Made by a program: the position numbers and the translations under genes. 43,258 bases of DNA from an uncultured Saprospiraceae bacterium. GTDB taxonomy: Bacteria; Bacteroidota; Bacteroidia; Chitinophagales; Saprospiraceae. The DNA lies in NCBI GenBank assembly GCA_964574485.1, contig CAZNNX010000004.1, positions 1 through 43,258 of the forward strand, read 5' to 3'. Positions 5,749 through 13,561 of this stretch are shown here, in pieces (position 1 is the first letter of the stretch; every line of letters begins with the position of its first letter). The notes below the pieces were generated by a model that made no database searches, was not told the DNA's origin, and saw nothing but the letters and a program-made list of their open reading frames with translations.

Positions 5749-5791
5749 ACAGCCTTCAATAGATATCTAATCTTTGAGGGCTGTTTTTTTT
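5749..5791 (+). terminator. Rho-independent terminator
   Basis: ACAGCCTTCAA...TTGAGGGCTGT stem (one G-U pair) followed by a T run, between convergent genes. Confidence 0.8.
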
Positions 5792-6401
5792 ATAGTAGTA
5801 AGGTAAATTCATTCAAAATCATAGCCGTTGCCCCCCAAATTATCTCGCCCTGATGATCAAAACATGGTGTTTTATATAGATATTTATTAGACCCAATGGC
5901 TATATCTTTCTCCACTTTTGATTTGGATAATGTAGTTAATGGAATTTCAATGATTTCATCCACTTCCCTTTTATCTGGATAAAATAGTATATTTTGTTCT
6001 GAAATAGCTATGAAAGGATGAACAAGATAATTGCTTACAGGTATATAAACTTCTGTTAAAGCCCCAATAATTTTCATTTGTTTTTGATTAATTCCAAATT
6101 CTTCTTCGGTCTCTCTTAGTGCAGTTTGTTCTAAAGTTTGATCTGTTTCTTCAAATCCACCTCCGGGTAAACTGATTTGTCTACTATGGTGATAGGGCGA
6201 TTCTGGCCTTCTCATGACAGGCAGGTGTAAGGAATCATCTTTTTTGTAAACCAATATCAATACAGCTGCTTTTTTATGATTTTCCGGATAGCTCAATCTT
6301 TGTGCTACTGTATAGTTCGAACTCCACATTTCTTTATGTGCCTTCCAACCAGGTAGAGGTTCCTTTAACTTTTTTTCAATTCTAGAGATCCATTCTTTCA
6401 T
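5790..6401 (-). CDS. NUDIX hydrolase, CoA pyrophosphatase (NudL/PCD1-like)
   Basis: AAVLIL, H..QISLPGG, Nudix box GGGFEETDQTLEQTALRETEEEFG, C-terminal IWGATAMIL. Confidence 0.92.
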   Translation of the reverse strand: MKEWISRIEKKLKEPLPGWKAHKEMWSSNYTVAQRLSYPENHKKAAVLILVYKKDDSLHLPVMRRPESPYHHSRQISLPGGGFEETDQTLEQTALRETEEEFGINQKQMKIIGALTEVYIPVSNYLVHPFIAISEQNILFYPDKREVDEIIEIPLTTLSKSKVEKDIAIGSNKYLYKTPCFDHQGEIIWGATAMILNEFTLLL

Positions 6402-6457: not shown

Positions 6458-9064
6458 GTGTTTTTATCCAAATCAGATACTATACAAATATTAAATACTT
6501 ATGCGATTGAGTTGGAATCCAACTTAGTAGCCTTAAGAAATATTGATTTAGAGAAAAAGTTACTTATTTCCTACATTCTTTATGATAGACTTTTCTATAT
6601 CTCAGAAAATAATTCTTTGTACCACATACTAGAGTCAAGAGATTTTTTTGAAGAAATAGTTGACCTTTTCATTTTTAAGAAAGATAATCTCATTGAAGAG
6701 GTCAGGCAATTGTATATTGATTTAAAGAATAGTCGGAATCATTCGGAATTGATTTCGTTTTTATTTGAGCCTTTTTTGTTGAATGAACATAATCTTTCTA
6801 TTTTTTCTGGCTTGCTTCATATATCAAATGCATATAAATCCAAATGCAAAGAAATTTCTAATGAAGATTTTTTTGAGTTTTATACAACTCTCATTCAAAA
6901 GAAATATTTGAATTTTTCAAATCAAGAGGGCAATCACAATGTAATCAAAGAAATCTTAGGTTTTTTTCAAGAGAATTTTAAAGGAAATTGGATTTTTCCT
7001 TTTTCAGGTTTGGAAGATTTATTTTGTATGGGCAATAGCTGGAAAGGTCATTTCTTTTTATCTGATTCTTTTGAAGAAATGTTATTTCGATTGATACTGA
7101 CCCTAAATGAAAATTCTTCGAATGCACAAATCTCTCCTCAATATTTAAGTTTTGAAGATCAAGAAATGAAATATAATTCATTTTATGTGGTAGGGGAAAC
7201 TGCTAAGATACATTCTAGAAAATTAGTCAACAGACCTTTTTTTGATGAAAAGTCAGCAGTTGTAGAAAATGAAGAGGTGTATATAGCAGAAGCTTGTATT
7301 CAAAAAATGATTTACTGTCTGGGTGATGATCAGTGTGCACTTTTATTCATTTCAAATCATTTACTGGAAGGTGAAAATACTTTTAAATCATCTCGAAATT
7401 TTTTACTGAAAAAAGATTGTTTGGCTTTTGTTATTGGATTGCCCAAAGTTTTAGACGAAGCTAAGTCTAAAAGTTTTTCACTATTGGTTTTGAAAAAGCA
7501 AAAATTTCGTTCTGGCTTTATTGGATTTATTGATTTACAACGAACCAAAACCGAAGAGAGCATAACTGAAATTTTAGAACTTTTGATGCAGCCTGAAATT
7601 AATTTTTCAATATCTGAGGAAATTCAATGGGCTGATACATTCAGTATTCGCGAAAAAAAATTAAATCTAAATCCAAAGAGATATACATCTAAAATTGTAA
7701 GGGAGATTCAGTTGTTGCAATCAGTTCATAATTTTGTTCCACTTCAGCAATTAATTAAGGATGAAATGGCACAACTGTGGCTTCATTCTAATGATACGCT
7801 TGTTTCTCAGTACAAATATATAGGTATTGACGAACTTGTTTCTGCTCAGAATACCAGATATTTTTTGACTTCGGGTTTGGTGAACTGTCAAGACATTTTA
7901 AAAAATTTGGAAGGAAGGCTTTTAGATCAACCGGCTATCCTATTTGGTAGTCGCGACGGGATTATTTTTACTGCTATTTTACAGTCGAACGAAAAATTTT
8001 TTCTGAGTGACGAGATTAGCTTTTTGATTCCCACAGAGCAGGTTGAATTAGAATACTTGTTTTTTGTGTTGCAATCATCTTACTTTAAGGAACAGTATGA
8101 ATTGTATAAGGAAGATGATACTGTTGAATTGTATCAAATCCTGGATAAAATTCTCTTACCCATAAGTCATCGCGAAAATCAATTACTTCAAATCCAAAAA
8201 GAAAAGGAGAATTGGTTGATACAGGAAGAGAAAAAATTAGAATTGGTGCGCGATATGCTTCAAGTTAAAGGTAATGTGGCTAGCCAGAAACAATATCAAC
8301 TTTTATCATCCCTACAACATGAATTGGGAAATAAATTACCTGCCATTTATAATCAATTTTATAGTTTAAAAGACTATTTACAAAAATTGGAAAGTTCTGG
8401 AAAAATTTCACTATTAGATTCGATTTATGAAGAAGAATTGCAGTTAGAGTTTGGTATTGAAGGACCTAAATTGGAAGGATTAATTGGTTCCATAGAAAAA
8501 TTGATTAGACAATCGGTAGAAACCTTAGAGGCTACGAATTCAATAATTAGAGCTGATATCAGTCACATGCAAATTGAAGTTCTTTCGCCAATTGAATTTT
8601 TTAAAGATCTTATCAGGCCCTTTCAAAGGATTAAAAAATATCATATTCATCTGGAGTATGATGAAAAAAGTACTTTGGTGCATGATTTAAAACTTAAATG
8701 CGATAGGCGGCAGCTTGAAACTCTTGTTTCAAACCTACTTTTGAATGCAGAGAAGCATGGTTTTCAGGAAGGTGAAAATCACAGAATTCTTTTCAAATTA
8801 CATTTTCCATTAGAAAAGGAAATGATGATTGTTGAATATACTAATACTGGAAAAGCTTTTCCTAAAGATTTTACTATGCAGGACTTTTTAAGTTTTGGTA
8901 AATACGCCGGAAATACTGGTAATACTGGAATTGGTGGATTTTTAATTCATCAGATTTTAGAAAATCACAATGCACAGATGAAATTTTATAATGAAAATAT
9001 ACTTGAAAACCTTTACAAGTTTAAAATTGAGTTTTATTTTCCTTTAATGAAGATCAAAATATAG
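6458..9064 (+). CDS. Soluble histidine kinase with degenerate HsdM-like N6-methyltransferase and HsdS/TRD-like input domains
   Basis: aa ~285-410 match the HsdM C-terminal half (RNFLLKKDCLAFVIGLP...LLVLKKQK...FIDL...I.EKKLNLNPKRY). aa ~425-580 match a TRD (VPLQQLI, YIGIDEL, VELEYLFFVLQSSYFKEQ, ILLPISHRENQ). H-box SSLQHELGNKLP (His621, codon 8318-8320), N-box NLLLNAEKHG, G1 NTGKAFP, G2 GNTGNTGIGG. GTG start is uncertain. Confidence 0.85.
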   Translation: MFLSKSDTIQILNTYAIELESNLVALRNIDLEKKLLISYILYDRLFYISENNSLYHILESRDFFEEIVDLFIFKKDNLIEEVRQLYIDLKNSRNHSELISFLFEPFLLNEHNLSIFSGLLHISNAYKSKCKEISNEDFFEFYTTLIQKKYLNFSNQEGNHNVIKEILGFFQENFKGNWIFPFSGLEDLFCMGNSWKGHFFLSDSFEEMLFRLILTLNENSSNAQISPQYLSFEDQEMKYNSFYVVGETAKIHSRKLVNRPFFDEKSAVVENEEVYIAEACIQKMIYCLGDDQCALLFISNHLLEGENTFKSSRNFLLKKDCLAFVIGLPKVLDEAKSKSFSLLVLKKQKFRSGFIGFIDLQRTKTEESITEILELLMQPEINFSISEEIQWADTFSIREKKLNLNPKRYTSKIVREIQLLQSVHNFVPLQQLIKDEMAQLWLHSNDTLVSQYKYIGIDELVSAQNTRYFLTSGLVNCQDILKNLEGRLLDQPAILFGSRDGIIFTAILQSNEKFFLSDEISFLIPTEQVELEYLFFVLQSSYFKEQYELYKEDDTVELYQILDKILLPISHRENQLLQIQKEKENWLIQEEKKLELVRDMLQVKGNVASQKQYQLLSSLQHELGNKLPAIYNQFYSLKDYLQKLESSGKISLLDSIYEEELQLEFGIEGPKLEGLIGSIEKLIRQSVETLEATNSIIRADISHMQIEVLSPIEFFKDLIRPFQRIKKYHIHLEYDEKSTLVHDLKLKCDRRQLETLVSNLLLNAEKHGFQEGENHRILFKLHFPLEKEMMIVEYTNTGKAFPKDFTMQDFLSFGKYAGNTGNTGIGGFLIHQILENHNAQMKFYNENILENLYKFKIEFYFPLMKIKI

Positions 9065-9066
9065 AG

Positions 9067-10023
9067 ATGAATAGAAGAAGACCCATACTTGTATTAATGA
9101 TTGATGATGACCCTGAATTTGCTTCCTCATTGGTTTCGAGAGCGTTAAAGTATCAGGTTATCATTCATTACAAACAAAATTTAAAAGATGGATTGGATGC
9201 ATTAGAAGCCAATTCAAAATATCAGGCTATTATTTTGGATGGAAAGGCACCAATTGATGCCAACCAACTCTATGGTACCGAGTCTGAAAATTTTGTATTT
9301 GAGGCTATTTTAAAACTAAAGGAAATTGAGTTGACGCAAGGTCGACTTTTACCATATTGTGTACTTACCGCATGGTCTGCTCAGTTAGAGAATGCTCTCA
9401 GGGACAGAGCAAAAATATTTGACAAAAAACAGATTGCCTTAAGCGAGCAGATATTGACTGACATGTTTGAGTATTTACATGAAGGTGTAGCACAATTGGA
9501 GGAAACCAGAATAATTCATTTGCATCCGGAAATTTTTGATTTTGCATCAAAATATCTGGATAACGAAGATTATAGTTTTTTAATGGCTTTACTTATGGCT
9601 AAGCCAACCAGCAAAAGAGAACAAATAATTGAAAAGTTGGCATTTTTAAGGAGGTTGGAAGAATCCTTGTTAAATATTTTTTGCAAGGAGGTATTACAAG
9701 TAGATCCCCTTCTTTATGGATTGGATGGCCAGAGCAGAACGAAGGATTTAATAGAATTAGTGAAAAATAGAAAATTAGCCCCTCTGCATATATCTTTTTT
9801 AACTTATGTAATTTATACTACTTTAAGTGCTATCGTTCAGCACAAGGCACCTGAAAACAGTGAATACAATCAGTATCCGGTTACTTCTTATACGCTCCAA
9901 ACATTCACGGGGGCTATGTTAGAGATGATATTATGGGTCAAGGAGAGTATTGAAAAAGGTCCCAGAGAAGGATCGCTTATGGCTGATTATTTACCACCAC
10001 AAAGTAGAAAAAGAAATGAGTGA
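9067..10023 (+). CDS. Response regulator: receiver domain plus helical HEPN/DUF4145-like output domain
   Basis: Receiver residues are intact: D13-D14-D15, D58 (IILDG), T101, K120. The C-terminal helical domain carries LRRLEESLL and LSAIVQH; no HTH is recognisable. Starts 2 bp after the kinase stop. Confidence 0.8.
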   Translation: MNRRRPILVLMIDDDPEFASSLVSRALKYQVIIHYKQNLKDGLDALEANSKYQAIILDGKAPIDANQLYGTESENFVFEAILKLKEIELTQGRLLPYCVLTAWSAQLENALRDRAKIFDKKQIALSEQILTDMFEYLHEGVAQLEETRIIHLHPEIFDFASKYLDNEDYSFLMALLMAKPTSKREQIIEKLAFLRRLEESLLNIFCKEVLQVDPLLYGLDGQSRTKDLIELVKNRKLAPLHISFLTYVIYTTLSAIVQHKAPENSEYNQYPVTSYTLQTFTGAMLEMILWVKESIEKGPREGSLMADYLPPQSRKRNE

Positions 10024-10789
10024 AATTATTTACACTGAAAAAGACAGAATTGCCTGGATTTTTTTGAATAGACCTGAAAAAAGAAATGCATTACATACTG
10101 AAATGCTTGAGGATTTGAGAGCTTATTTTAAAAAGGCGGAAACAAATGAAGAAATCAGGGCTGTTTGTTTGGGAGCTAAAGGGAAATACTTTTGCAGTGG
10201 TGCAGATTTGAGTATGCTTTTGCAGTCTTTTCAAAATACTAACGAACAAAATATTGAAGATTCAAGGAGAATGGCTGAATTGTACGTCTATTTATATACC
10301 TTTCCCAAACCTTTCATTACGCTATTGGAGGGGCCAGCCTTAGCCGGGGGTGCAGGTTTAGCTACAATTTCTGATTATTGTTTTGCAACAAAAGAGGCAT
10401 TCATTAGTTATCCTGAAGTTAAAGTTGGCTATGTACCTGCCATAGTTTCTCTTTTTTTAAATCAAAAATTGGGTCTTCATAACGCAAAGAAACTTTTATT
10501 GACAGGTGCAGAGTTAAGTGCTGAAGAGGCAAAAAAATGGGGACTCATAGAGGAAATTTACTCAAGTGAGGAAATAATGGATCAGGTAAATTTCTTTTTA
10601 CAAGAGCTCTGTCTGAAAGTGTCTCCTCAGTCTTTTGCTCAAACAAAAAAGTTAATGCATTGTTATGATGAGGAATCTTTTGCAAAAAACTTAGAAAAAG
10701 CCGTATTTTTAAATGTGGAGGCAAGGAAGACAGAGGATTTTATAAAAGGCGTACAGTCTTTTATGAATAAGGAAAAAATAAATTGGTAA
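10016..10789 (+). CDS. Enoyl-CoA hydratase/isomerase (methylglutaconyl-CoA hydratase-like)
   Basis: LNRPEKRNAL, FCSGADL, GPALAGGAGL, YPEVKVGYVPA. ATG at 10016 (MSEIIY), overlapping the upstream stop, is preferred over the TTG at 9950. Confidence 0.92.
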   Translation: MSEIIYTEKDRIAWIFLNRPEKRNALHTEMLEDLRAYFKKAETNEEIRAVCLGAKGKYFCSGADLSMLLQSFQNTNEQNIEDSRRMAELYVYLYTFPKPFITLLEGPALAGGAGLATISDYCFATKEAFISYPEVKVGYVPAIVSLFLNQKLGLHNAKKLLLTGAELSAEEAKKWGLIEEIYSSEEIMDQVNFFLQELCLKVSPQSFAQTKKLMHCYDEESFAKNLEKAVFLNVEARKTEDFIKGVQSFMNKEKINW

Positions 10790-11504: not shown

Positions 11505-12224
11505 ATGAACAAGTTATCACTAGTTATACTTATTTTCATCTCTAACTTTTTTTACTGCAAGGGACAACTTTTATCTGAAGCTACCAAGCAAAGTTCTGTA
11601 ATAAAAAATGGACTTGTGAAATACAAAATGGTTGTGGAATCTGAAAACCCACAAGCAAAGATGATGAATAATTCTACCTTGGAAATTGCATTTTGTGGAT
11701 CAGATACCAAAGCAAATGGTCTTCTCATGGGCGGTTTATTAGGGGCTCAGATTACCATGGACCTGTTGAATGGTAAGGGTTTGGCCTTACTGACTATCAT
11801 GGGACAAAAAAAAGCTGTAAAGATGAATAACGATGATTTTAAATGGGCACAAAATTCTACTAATAGCCTCTCAGGTGAGGTTAATTTTACTCCAGTTAAA
11901 GGAACTCAGAAAGTAGCGGGCTATGCTTGTAAAAAATATCTGGTAAAAGATCCGAAAAATCCAGATGTTCAAACAACAGTGTTTATTTGTGAATCTATTA
12001 AACCAGATTCCGGGGGACTAATGGATAATATTCTCAAAACATACAAGGGATTTCCACTAGGTTTTGAAGTAAAATCAAAAGACGCTAAAATGTCTTTTAT
12101 GGCCTCAGAAGTTTCAACAAAATTATTAAAGAAATCTGATTTCAAACAAGAAATTCCGGCTGAATTTGAATTAACTACCATGGAAAACTTGATGAGAGAT
12201 ATGGGACCTATGTTTAAAAACTAG
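11505..12224 (+). CDS. Secreted DUF4412/GLPGLI-like protein, tandem paralog
   Basis: ATG 11505 gives a signal peptide (MNKLSLVILIF); TQKVAGYACKKY, KGFPLG and IPAEF motifs; collinear with the previous gene. Confidence 0.75.
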   Translation: MNKLSLVILIFISNFFYCKGQLLSEATKQSSVIKNGLVKYKMVVESENPQAKMMNNSTLEIAFCGSDTKANGLLMGGLLGAQITMDLLNGKGLALLTIMGQKKAVKMNNDDFKWAQNSTNSLSGEVNFTPVKGTQKVAGYACKKYLVKDPKNPDVQTTVFICESIKPDSGGLMDNILKTYKGFPLGFEVKSKDAKMSFMASEVSTKLLKKSDFKQEIPAEFELTTMENLMRDMGPMFKN

Positions 12225-12226
12225 TT

Positions 12227-13561
12227 TTATTTCAGAAGGAACTTAAATTTTTGTCCATTTTGAAAAAGTATAAAACTCTTGTAGTCCATGTCAAATAGTA
12301 TTTTTACAGCTGCTTTTTCAAAAGTAAATTGATTATCACCAACATATGTAAGTGGAAATTCGGGTTGATTAGTTCCTTGGGCAAAGAGGTACCCATTCTT
12401 TTCAAAAATTTTAATATCAAATTGTAGATCAGAATTAGAATAGGTTTGGGTTATTTTGTCAATCAAATCTTTATCAAGTTTATTGTTTTTCAAAATTTGT
12501 GGCAGCTCGAATTTTTTGTTGTAAACTGCACTTAGCATGTAAATCAGAATATCGTTCATCGTCATATCATTTCCGTTTAAGCATAAGCTGACAGATATTT
12601 CTTGATTATCAAAGTAAAAGCTTGCAGATTGATAGCCATCAATTCCACCCGTATGTCCATAGCCTGTATTTTCATAAAAGGGTACTTTAAACAGACCTTT
12701 TCCAACATTATTTTCTGTTTCCTTCATTACAGCAAGGGTCTTTTTATTTACTATTTTACCACTGAGTAATTGATAAATAAACAGATTTAATTCATTGGGA
12801 GTTGAAATCATATTACCCGCAGAAAAGGGGATAGATGCATCTGTTCGAGATGTTTTTATCCATTTATTTTCCTTTTTTTCATAAGAATTTGCATCTGGAA
12901 AAACATTTGTTTGATAGACCTTAGTTTTTTTATATTTTAATTTGTCAACGCATAATTTCTGAATCAGGTTTGCAAAAGTAGTTTTATGTATATCTTCCAG
13001 TATCCATCCTAAAATGATATAATTTGTATTGGAGTAGCTCATTTGAGTTCCTGGATCAAAGTCTGAAGGAAGGTTTATTATTTTTTCTAAAAGTTTTTCC
13101 TTTGATTGGTAATTTTGATTCCACTCTAAATAATCAGAGGCATCTGTAATATTATACAGCCCAGATTTATGACTCAACAACATGGCAATGTTAATGCGGT
13201 TCGAATTGGGAATTTGTGGATAGAATTCCGACAATTTGGTATCCAGGTTAAGCATCGAACCATTGGGTAGTTGATGAGAATTTTCCATGGCTTCAAAAAG
13301 TAGGGTAGCAGTAAAGGTTTTTGTTATAGAACCGATGCAATAGCTCGTATTTTCATTATTTTTTATTTTTTGATCAATATCAGCATATCCGATAGACTTT
13401 TGATAAATGATTTTGCCCTTTTTAGCAATGGAGAAAGAACCCAAGCATTGATTTTGATTTTCTAAAATTTGGAAGACTGAATCAAGTTTAGCTTGTTGAA
13501 ATTGGCTAAATAAATGTAAAGCTTGTATTACAAAAAAGATAGGAATAATTTGATTTTTCAT
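12227..13561 (-). CDS. Serine hydrolase, class C beta-lactamase/D-Ala-D-Ala peptidase family
   Basis: SxxK (GSITK), YxN (YSNTNY), HTG (GHTGG), LLSHKSG; signal peptide. Confidence 0.9.
   Translation of the reverse strand: MKNQIIPIFFVIQALHLFSQFQQAKLDSVFQILENQNQCLGSFSIAKKGKIIYQKSIGYADIDQKIKNNENTSYCIGSITKTFTATLLFEAMENSHQLPNGSMLNLDTKLSEFYPQIPNSNRINIAMLLSHKSGLYNITDASDYLEWNQNYQSKEKLLEKIINLPSDFDPGTQMSYSNTNYIILGWILEDIHKTTFANLIQKLCVDKLKYKKTKVYQTNVFPDANSYEKKENKWIKTSRTDASIPFSAGNMISTPNELNLFIYQLLSGKIVNKKTLAVMKETENNVGKGLFKVPFYENTGYGHTGGIDGYQSASFYFDNQEISVSLCLNGNDMTMNDILIYMLSAVYNKKFELPQILKNNKLDKDLIDKITQTYSNSDLQFDIKIFEKNGYLFAQGTNQPEFPLTYVGDNQFTFEKAAVKILFDMDYKSFILFQNGQKFKFLLK

What the first reader, a model, noticed from the sequence alone, without database searches (positions are those of the whole stretch)
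6458..10023. Two-component system built from restriction-modification parts: HsdM/HsdS-like sensor kinase plus REC-HEPN-like regulator
Seen: an 868-aa protein with no signal peptide or obvious TM helix, ordered HsdM-like region, one TRD-like region, coiled coil, H-box (His621), then HATPase with N/G1/G2 boxes. A regulator with every phosphoacceptor residue intact (D13-15, D58, T101, K120) starts 2 bp later. No hsdR or other nuclease gene is in the window. Established: Type I RM M/S subunits bind DNA and are targeted by DNA mimics such as Ocr and ArdA, and PrrC and PARIS show that cells guard against RM inhibition. Inference: the RM scaffold has been repurposed as a cytoplasmic sensor or decoy. 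It would convert binding of DNA, methylation state or a phage anti-restriction protein into His-Asp phosphotransfer. I recall similar methylase-kinase fusions as uncharacterised annotations in Bacteroidota and know of no functional description. This is the best candidate in the window for an undescribed system.
Basis: partly seen in the sequence, partly recalled or inferred. Interest (0 to 1): 0.88.

Follow-up and report, generated by a model that had tools for sequence, protein, structure and literature searches.

The report
Disarmed restriction methylase turned sensor kinase
A gene pair fuses likely inactive copies of the DNA-binding parts of a restriction enzyme to a signalling kinase beside its partner protein; relatives often sit in type I restriction operons and likely act as an alarm for them, while this copy is a settled chromosomal descendant whose sensor has worn down and whose job is untested.

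Summary
Gene 6458-9064 encodes HsdM-like + one TRD + coiled coil/DHp (His621) + HATPase. Gene 9067-10023 encodes an intact receiver domain plus a helical, predicted dimeric, HEPN-like output domain. The methylase part looks dead across the family: NPP[FY] in 1 of 47 fusions, against 10 of 10 true HsdMs. The family is patchy in Bacteroidota (12 of 401 genomes). There, 10 of 12 loci lie beside type I R-M genes and 8 of 12 beside a WYL gene. The output domain is swapped for Schlafen in 5 of 45 partners, as expected of a defence effector. This copy is different. It belongs to a Saprospira/Aureispira clade that is single-copy and vertically kept, with R-M genes in 0 of 20 loci. Its genome gave no hsdM/R/S hit, and its sensor is strongly eroded (11-23% identity to orthologues). 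Best reading: a pseudo-M2S2 clamp wired to His-Asp signalling, likely a guard of type I R-M in relatives and domesticated here. It works like Detocs but is not a member. No description was found in the papers searched. This scan already noted the R-M-linked form in another genome (e1-9748031). Ligand, phosphotransfer and RNase activity are untested.

The parts
6458..9064 (+). Sensor histidine kinase gene, 868 aa, soluble
   Evidence: intact 91%-identical homologue P0003
6458..6967 (+). aa 1-170: helical HsdM N-terminal-like domain
   Evidence: all-helical in the model; orthologue L004 hits HsdM_N at E 0.001
6968..7690 (+). aa 171-411: degenerate N6-adenine methyltransferase fold; motif I eroded, no NPP[FY] motif IV
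   Evidence: Pfam N6_Mtase 256-411
7730..8167 (+). aa 425-570: single HsdS-like target recognition domain (half of an S subunit)
   Evidence: PADLOC Specificity_I 464-553; Methylase_S in relatives at E 2e-9; HsdS chains
8171..8557 (+). aa 572-700: long helix (572-644) running from the TRD into the DHp hairpin; His621 at 8318-8320
   Evidence: model; H621 invariant in 50 rows
8558..9043 (+). aa 701-862: HATPase_c domain (N box N759/N763, G1 with Asn796, G2 G824/G826)
9067..9495 (+). aa 1-143 of the partner: receiver domain, D13-15, D58 (9238-9240), T101, K120
9496..9957 (+). aa 144-297 of the partner: all-helical HEPN-like output domain (R195, E199, H259, W290), predicted homodimer
5790..6401 (-). 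Context: divergent NUDIX hydrolase, syntenic in same-genus genomes
10016..10789 (+). Context: enoyl-CoA hydratase; its likely ATG (10016) overlaps the regulator's last 8 nt; syntenic in same-genus genomes

Best explanation
This is a two-component pair whose sensor is a likely inactive HsdM plus half-HsdS, predicted to dimerise into a restriction-methylase-like DNA clamp that would pass a phosphate from His621 to Asp58 and switch a predicted HEPN-like dimer; relatives likely use it as an alarm for type I restriction, and this copy is likely a domesticated descendant. Shown: domain order, family-wide loss of the catalytic motif, intact His/Asp residues, pairing of the two genes, R-M/WYL neighbourhoods of mobile members, swap of the output domain for Schlafen, and core-genome status and sensor erosion of this copy. 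Inferred: kinase dimerisation through the DHp helices brings two M-TRD halves together like the engineered symmetric enzyme EcoR124I-NT. Occupancy of that clamp, most plausibly by a DNA-mimic anti-restriction protein or by unmodified DNA, turns the continuous TRD-DHp helix and changes kinase output. The phosphorylated receiver then releases an RNA-targeting effector and causes growth arrest as a back-up to restriction. In the Saprospira/Aureispira lineage the pair has left the R-M operon and become single-copy. In this genome, where no type I R-M genes were found, the clamp has diverged furthest, so it probably reads a different or residual input while the phosphorelay still works.
For: Architecture. 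The top Foldseek hits include a type I MTase solved with Ocr (7eew, E 4e-11, 689 columns). NPP[FY] is in 1 of 47 fusions against 10 of 10 HsdM controls, and motif I is kept in 37 of 47. The receiver gene is next to the kinase in 21 of 21 and 12 of 12 mobile-type loci, and is present elsewhere in 5 of 5 genomes where the kinase stands alone. Type I R-M genes lie in 10 of 12 loci from a context-blind phylum draw and in 10 of 21 further loci (the two sets share 2 loci). That compares with 0 of 15 Geobacter loci that have the same kinase core and receiver but a membrane sensor (identities). In 8 of 12, hsdM or hsdR is the very next gene. The linked HsdMs best match at least four different PADLOC models, so the pair is an add-on, not part of one R-M lineage. 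The output is Schlafen AlbA_2 in 5 of 45 partners (E 8e-18), and an OB/CSD-like tail is added in others. The output-domain homodimer scored 0.76 against a best control of 0.00 (contacts agree at least 93%, pLDDT at least 85; the mark was reached by 20 of 30 solved pairs and 1 of 23 single chains). Its interface is the His-bearing helix and the last helix. Half-S dimerisation through the coiled coil and inhibition by Ocr are stated for EcoR124I-NT (PMC3320862, passages). Domestication.
Against: No ligand, phosphotransfer or phage data exist. The output domain lacks the HEPN Rx4-6H motif: an Arg 4-6 residues before the His in only 12 of 90 scorable rows, and none in this copy. A profile comparison with five DUF4145 domains was not significant, and Pfam DUF4145 hit only 2 of 130 members, at best E 0.077. 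This copy's clade has no R-M or WYL neighbours (0 of 20), and its genome gave no hsdM/R/S hit, so a guard role here has nothing obvious to guard. Eleven of 21 other Bacteroidota loci have no R-M gene within the fetched flanks. The same kinase core and receiver are used with a membrane sensor in Geobacter, so the output is not specific to R-M. The tree is rooted at the midpoint only, and this copy is a long branch.
Confidence: 0.5

Rival explanations
1. The pair is a controller of restriction rather than a killer. The pseudo-methylase reads the chromosome's methylation state or SAM, and the phosphorylated receiver with a non-catalytic HEPN-like domain tunes hsd expression or binds HsdR (restriction alleviation).
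For: The pair heads hsd operons, with hsdM or hsdR next in 8 of 12 loci and a WYL gene adjacent in 8 of 12. The output lacks Rx4-6H. Several linked HsdRs begin with a DUF4145 domain that could pair with a HEPN-like partner. Motif I is kept in 37 of 47.
Against: Swap of the output for Schlafen in 5 of 45. Linked HsdRs of L094, L097 and L098 show no DUF4145 hit. The pair is kept in a genome with no type I R-M found.
Confidence: 0.22
2. In this lineage the pair is an ordinary housekeeping regulator. The pseudo-methylase senses a metabolite (SAM/SAH) or a protein partner, and the output domain binds RNA or protein with no link to defence.
For: Single copy, present in 9 of 11 other same-genus genomes, conserved synteny with NUDIX and enoyl-CoA hydratase, regulator 63-66% identical across the genus, and 0 of 20 loci with R-M genes. 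Differences from P0003 are spread evenly over the domains (6-11%), so the sensor is not now decaying faster than the kinase.
Against: It does not explain the mobile members. Motif I is eroded in this copy, which argues against SAM sensing here. It is compatible with the best explanation as the end state of domestication.
Confidence: 0.2
3. The protein is an active solitary M-S fusion methyltransferase (type IIG-like) that happens to carry a kinase.
For: Strong N6_Mtase scores in orthologues (E 5e-49); fold match to the type IIG enzyme BpuSI; one member keeps NPPF.
Against: NPP[FY] is absent in 46 of 47; both motifs are lost in this copy; mobile members sit next to a separate intact hsdM.
Confidence: 0.04
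4. This copy is a decaying relic with no function.
For: Sensor only 11-23% identical to clade orthologues, against 39-62% among four same-genus copies; long branch.
Against: Intact 868-aa frame in both this genome and P0003; all catalytic residues kept; even divergence across domains; regulator 66% identical to L034 while neighbours are 42-58%.
Confidence: 0.04

Closest known systems
Detocs (DtcA/DtcB/DtcC; bioRxiv 10.1101/2023.01.24.525353, passages read)
   Same: Soluble sensor kinase plus receiver fused to a non-DNA-binding, swappable output domain; His-Asp relay intact.
   Different: The sensor here is pseudo-HsdM + TRD, where the Detocs figure legend lists TPRs. No stand-alone receiver (DtcB). 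The output is HEPN-like or Schlafen, not PNP (80% of Detocs). Tied to type I R-M operons. Defence not shown.
Type I R-M methyltransferase M2S1 and the symmetric half-S enzyme EcoR124I-NT (PMC3320862, passages); solved MTases PacII 7vs4 and V. vulnificus 7eew
   Same: HsdM N-terminal domain, MTase fold, TRD and following helix; half-S can dimerise by its coiled coil.
   Different: M and half-S are fused, the catalytic motif is lost, and the helix continues into a DHp/HATPase kinase. No HsdR belongs to the pair.
R-M guards PrrC/RloC and PARIS (recalled; HEPN nature of PrrC/RloC seen in PMC3710099 passages)
   Same: Accessory to or back-up for type I R-M; an RNA-targeting effector is proposed to fire when restriction is attacked.
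   Different: Those use ABC-type ATPases as sensors and no phosphorelay (recalled). Here the cell would carry its own decoy M-S copy wired to a kinase.
DUF4145-type HEPN domains (PF13643)
   Same: Helical bundle with conserved R..E, a His at the end of the penultimate helix and a Trp in the last helix; predicted dimer through those helices.
   Different: The Arg/Asn before the His is replaced; no significant profile match.

Membership tests
Class I His-Asp two-component system | DHp His, HATPase N/G boxes | tested here: met
   H621, N763, H767, G798, G824, G826 invariant in 50 rows; Pfam and fold hits; G1 has Asn in place of Asp
Class I His-Asp two-component system | Receiver with acidic pocket, Asp, Thr, Lys | tested here: met
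Class I His-Asp two-component system | Phosphotransfer between the two proteins | not testable with these tools
   needs in vitro assay
Active type I / IIG N6-adenine methyltransferase | Motif IV NPP[FY] | tested here: not met
   absent in this copy; 1 of 47 fusions against 10 of 10 controls
Active type I / IIG N6-adenine methyltransferase | SAM-binding motif I (DPxxGxG) | tested here: not met
   eroded in this copy; kept in 37 of 47 family members
Type I R-M system | hsdR, hsdM and hsdS genes at the locus or in the genome | tested here: not met
   no tblastn hit at E<=1e-4 for 7 HsdM, 5 HsdR and 3 HsdS queries in G000 (96% complete, 329 contigs); only one A1 match in the genome
Detocs | Three genes including stand-alone receiver DtcB | tested here: not met
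   neighbours are NUDIX and enoyl-CoA hydratase; none seen in ORF maps of related loci
Detocs | TPR-type sensor and PNP (or listed alternative) effector | tested here: not met
   sensor is MTase/TRD; no PNP hit in 45 or 130 partners
Detocs | Match to DtcA/B/C profiles | tested here: inconclusive
   no PADLOC family for the receiver; whether that 2023 library holds Detocs models was not checked
Detocs | Anti-phage activity needing His and Asp | not testable with these tools
   needs phage challenge
HEPN superfamily | Helical bundle fold and homodimer through the motif helix | tested here: inconclusive
   all-helical 145-297; dimer 0.76 against 0.00; domain not folded or searched alone, REC filled the fold lists
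HEPN superfamily (active RNases) | Rx4-6H catalytic motif | tested here: not met
   His conserved, preceding Arg absent here and in 78 of 90 scorable rows
HEPN superfamily | Profile match to a HEPN family | tested here: inconclusive
   hhalign to a 5-sequence DUF4145 profile not significant; Pfam DUF4145 2 of 130, best E 0.077

The most novel reading that the evidence does not exclude
Bacteroidota have built an integrated-decoy receptor from type I R-M parts. A dead M2S2 clamp catches phage DNA-mimic anti-restriction proteins and fires a kinase that activates a swappable RNase, including a HEPN-like family with a non-canonical R/E/H active site. The Saprospira lineage has domesticated this immune receptor into a core signalling pair.
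Probability: 0.3. Interest if true: 0.86.

Novelty: new variant of a known kind. Interest (0 to 1): 0.7.

Why it matters
It would be a bacterial decoy receptor made from the target of anti-restriction proteins and read out by His-Asp phosphorylation. That joins two ideas, R-M guarding and defensive two-component signalling, in an architecture for which no description was found. It names a testable ligand class (Ocr/ArdA, unmodified DNA) and a large unnamed output domain (1067 clusters at 50% identity). This locus adds a case of an apparently immune-derived receptor becoming a fixed core gene pair and losing sensor motifs in a genome where no type I R-M was found.

Tried and rejected
Active methylase: rejected on motifs. 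The stretch near aa 258-262 that looks like motif IV aligns downstream of the relatives' motif IV position. Defence island at this locus: rejected. HEPN by profile: hhalign against five DUF4145 domains scored within the shuffled controls (14.3 against a maximum of 16.2). A PDB sequence search with the domain profile gave nothing better than E 0.07. The ESM Atlas gave only unnamed clusters under 0.9. Fold searches of the full regulator were filled by REC domains, and the Csm6 row (E 1.4e-3, rmsd 19.6) is not used as evidence. Expression: one river metatranscriptome held 5% of the words and gave 7 short pieces at depth 2-5. This does not show transcription. The synonymous/non-synonymous tally from those pieces (sensor 10/5, kinase core 5/3, regulator 9/1) is too thin to use. 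Binding of Ocr to the sensor was not modelled. Literature: nine full-text searches found no description of this fusion. Passages only were read in PMC3710099, PMC12839542, PMC3417536, PMC8195603, PMC3320862 and the Detocs preprint; no supplements were read. The HARE-HTH paper (PMC3272235) and two comparative-genomics papers on conflict systems recalled from memory were not held; they or their supplements could list this architecture.
Full report
OBSERVATION. The two ORFs are as described: 6458-9064 (868 aa) and 9067-10023 (318 aa), 2 bp apart. Pfam finds N6_Mtase (256-411, E 6e-6) and HATPase_c (749-847, E 3e-7) in the first and nothing in the second. PADLOC adds a weak type I specificity hit (464-553, E 0.0019). 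Orthologues make the anatomy plain: HsdM_N, N6_Mtase (E down to 5e-49), Methylase_S (E 2e-9) and HATPase_c in one chain. A 50-row profile hits solved HsdM, HsdS and HisKA kinases. The AlphaFold model (pLDDT 76, pTM 0.53, so domain packing is uncertain) has one helix from 572 to 644 that joins the TRD to the His621 helix. Its best Foldseek matches are type I MTases, one of them solved with Ocr, followed by WalK/HK853. There is no TM segment. The partner has a true receiver fold and an all-helical domain at 145-297.

THE METHYLASE LOOKS DEAD, THE RELAY DOES NOT. Among 47 fusions, NPP[FY] occurs once, against 10 of 10 true HsdM controls. A motif I pattern is kept in 37 of 47, and in 8 of 10 controls. 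In this copy both motifs are eroded. His621 and the N and G boxes are invariant in 50 rows, and D14, D58, T101 and K120 in 45 partners. The G1 box carries Asn instead of Asp in over 90% of rows; I recall that this occurs in AgrC-type kinases and lowers ATP affinity without abolishing activity.

DISTRIBUTION AND NEIGHBOURS. Full-length fusions were found in 12 of 401 Bacteroidota genomes; an earlier, overlapping draw gave 7 of 300. In about 20 kb around these 12, type I R-M genes occur in 10 and a WYL gene within 2 kb in 8. In 8 the gene after the receiver is hsdM or hsdR; the exceptions for R-M are L101 and L058. Among 21 other Bacteroidota loci from a GTDB scan, 10 have R-M genes and 11 do not. 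Several of the latter have other defence-type neighbours such as retron XIII, Lamassu, DrmB and OLD-like ATPases (67 hand-picked neighbours scanned). L058 and L080/L099 are in both sets. One frameshifted locus (L081) and four partial ones (L009/L033, L010, L046) were left out of these counts. The R-M profiles were built from neighbours first identified by Pfam or PADLOC. Many mobile members have an N-terminal HARE-HTH. Fifteen Geobacter-type loci carry the same kinase core and receiver with a membrane sensor; none has R-M genes. Kin are not independent, so these are counts, not a statistical test.

THE OUTPUT DOMAIN. The receiver's C-terminal domain is replaced by Schlafen AlbA_2 in 5 of 45 partners and extended by an OB/CSD-like tail in others. 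Effector swapping of this kind is reported for Detocs. The common helical version forms 1067 clusters at 50% identity, with Arg (99%), Glu (97%) and Trp (99%) conserved, and His in at least 90% of a MAFFT alignment. It resembles DUF4145-type HEPN by eye. It is predicted to form a homodimer through the His-bearing helix and the last helix: score 0.76 against a best control of 0.00, runs agreeing in at least 93% of contacts, pLDDT at least 85, with the mark reached by 20 of 30 solved pairs and 1 of 23 single chains. That this is HEPN geometry is recalled knowledge. Against: there is no Rx4-6H motif, and profile tests were not significant. HEPN-like is therefore likely, but RNase activity is open.

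THIS COPY IS DOMESTICATED. Nine of 11 other same-genus genomes have the kinase; the two misses are 63% and 74% complete. A relative in that genus matches Saprospira grandis at 95%. Synteny with NUDIX and/or enoyl-CoA hydratase is kept in L001, L002, L007, L008 and L009. The Saprospira/Aureispira kinases form one branch (100/98), with R-M or WYL neighbours in 0 of 20 loci. In 14 of the 20 no receiver follows within the fetched DNA (some end near a contig edge), yet 5 of 5 such genomes tested hold one orthologue elsewhere, which argues for a working cognate pair. Across the family draw the regulator was found in 10 of 151 genomes. R-M-linked lineages lie on both sides of the midpoint root, which fits descent from an R-M cassette, but the root is not established. 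The window's genome gave no hit for 15 Hsd queries. Seven of the 9 same-genus carriers have extra matches limited to the MTase part, which I read as ordinary hsdM without inspecting them. The window's sensor domains are 11-23% identical to eight clade orthologues, against 39-62% among four same-genus copies. Its kinase core is 30-38%, its regulator 66% and its neighbours 42-58%. Differences from the 91%-identical P0003 are even across domains, so the sensor changed sharply once and now seems constrained. The link between R-M loss and sensor erosion rests on one genome.

MECHANISM. Kinases dimerise through DHp helices (established). Half-S subunits dimerise by their coiled coil into a symmetric enzyme that Ocr inhibits (PMC3320862, passages). 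The fusion would therefore assemble a symmetric, catalytically dead M2S2 clamp whose helix runs into the His helix. I infer that clamp occupancy, by a DNA mimic or unmodified DNA, alters kinase output, and that the phosphorylated receiver releases an RNA-targeting dimer as a back-up to restriction (confidence 0.5 for the whole account). Rivals are control of restriction (0.22), a purely housekeeping role in this lineage (0.2), an active methylase (0.04) and a relic (0.04). The chance that this particular copy still acts in defence I put at about 0.3.

KNOWN SYSTEMS AND NOVELTY. It works like Detocs but fails membership: there is no stand-alone receiver, and the sensor and effector differ. It is built from type I R-M parts but is not an R-M system. 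It parallels PrrC/PARIS guards (recalled) with a different sensor. Nine literature searches found no description; three potentially relevant comparative-genomics papers were not held, and no supplements were read. Databases label members only as 'type I restriction enzyme M protein' or 'response regulator receiver protein'. This scan has an earlier, unchecked note of the WYL/R-M-linked form in another genome (e1-9748031). I had reached that context independently and took the Detocs comparison from it. Verdict: real, an undescribed variant of defensive two-component signalling at family level, here in a domesticated and eroded form; interest 0.7.

Noticed in passing
L053, L055-L057, L059-L061, L063-L066, L069, L073-L075: Geobacter-type genomes carry the same kinase core and REC-HEPN-like partner with a small membrane sensor instead of the MTase/TRD; no R-M neighbours.
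   Followed up: partly
L067, L070, L072, L077, L084 (and L081 by eye), gene after the kinase: Receiver fused to Schlafen AlbA_2: a phosphorylation-gated Schlafen candidate with no PADLOC family for the one member scanned, L072.
   Followed up: partly
P0073, P0089, P0110, P0123: About 345-aa members with a longer, divergent receiver-like N-terminus fused to the same output domain; partners not examined.
   Followed up: no
L062:6534-8444, L068:6139-8121, L071:6478-8493: HsdS genes directly upstream of the kinase are 637-672 aa, with about 200 extra C-terminal residues beyond the two TRDs.
   Followed up: no
window:33049-35126: Four tandem OmpH/Skp genes.
   Followed up: no
window:426-5726: Large repeat-rich 1224-aa protein followed by a PorP/SprF-OmpA fusion, a likely type IX secretion cargo and partner.
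   Followed up: no
L045 (record titled Luminiphilus): The kinase falls inside the Saprospiraceae clade on a 3.5-kb contig; possibly mis-binned or transferred.
   Followed up: no
G000 contig C68, about 12013-12585: The genome's only hit to the WYL queries lies on another contig, unlinked to this locus.
   Followed up: no
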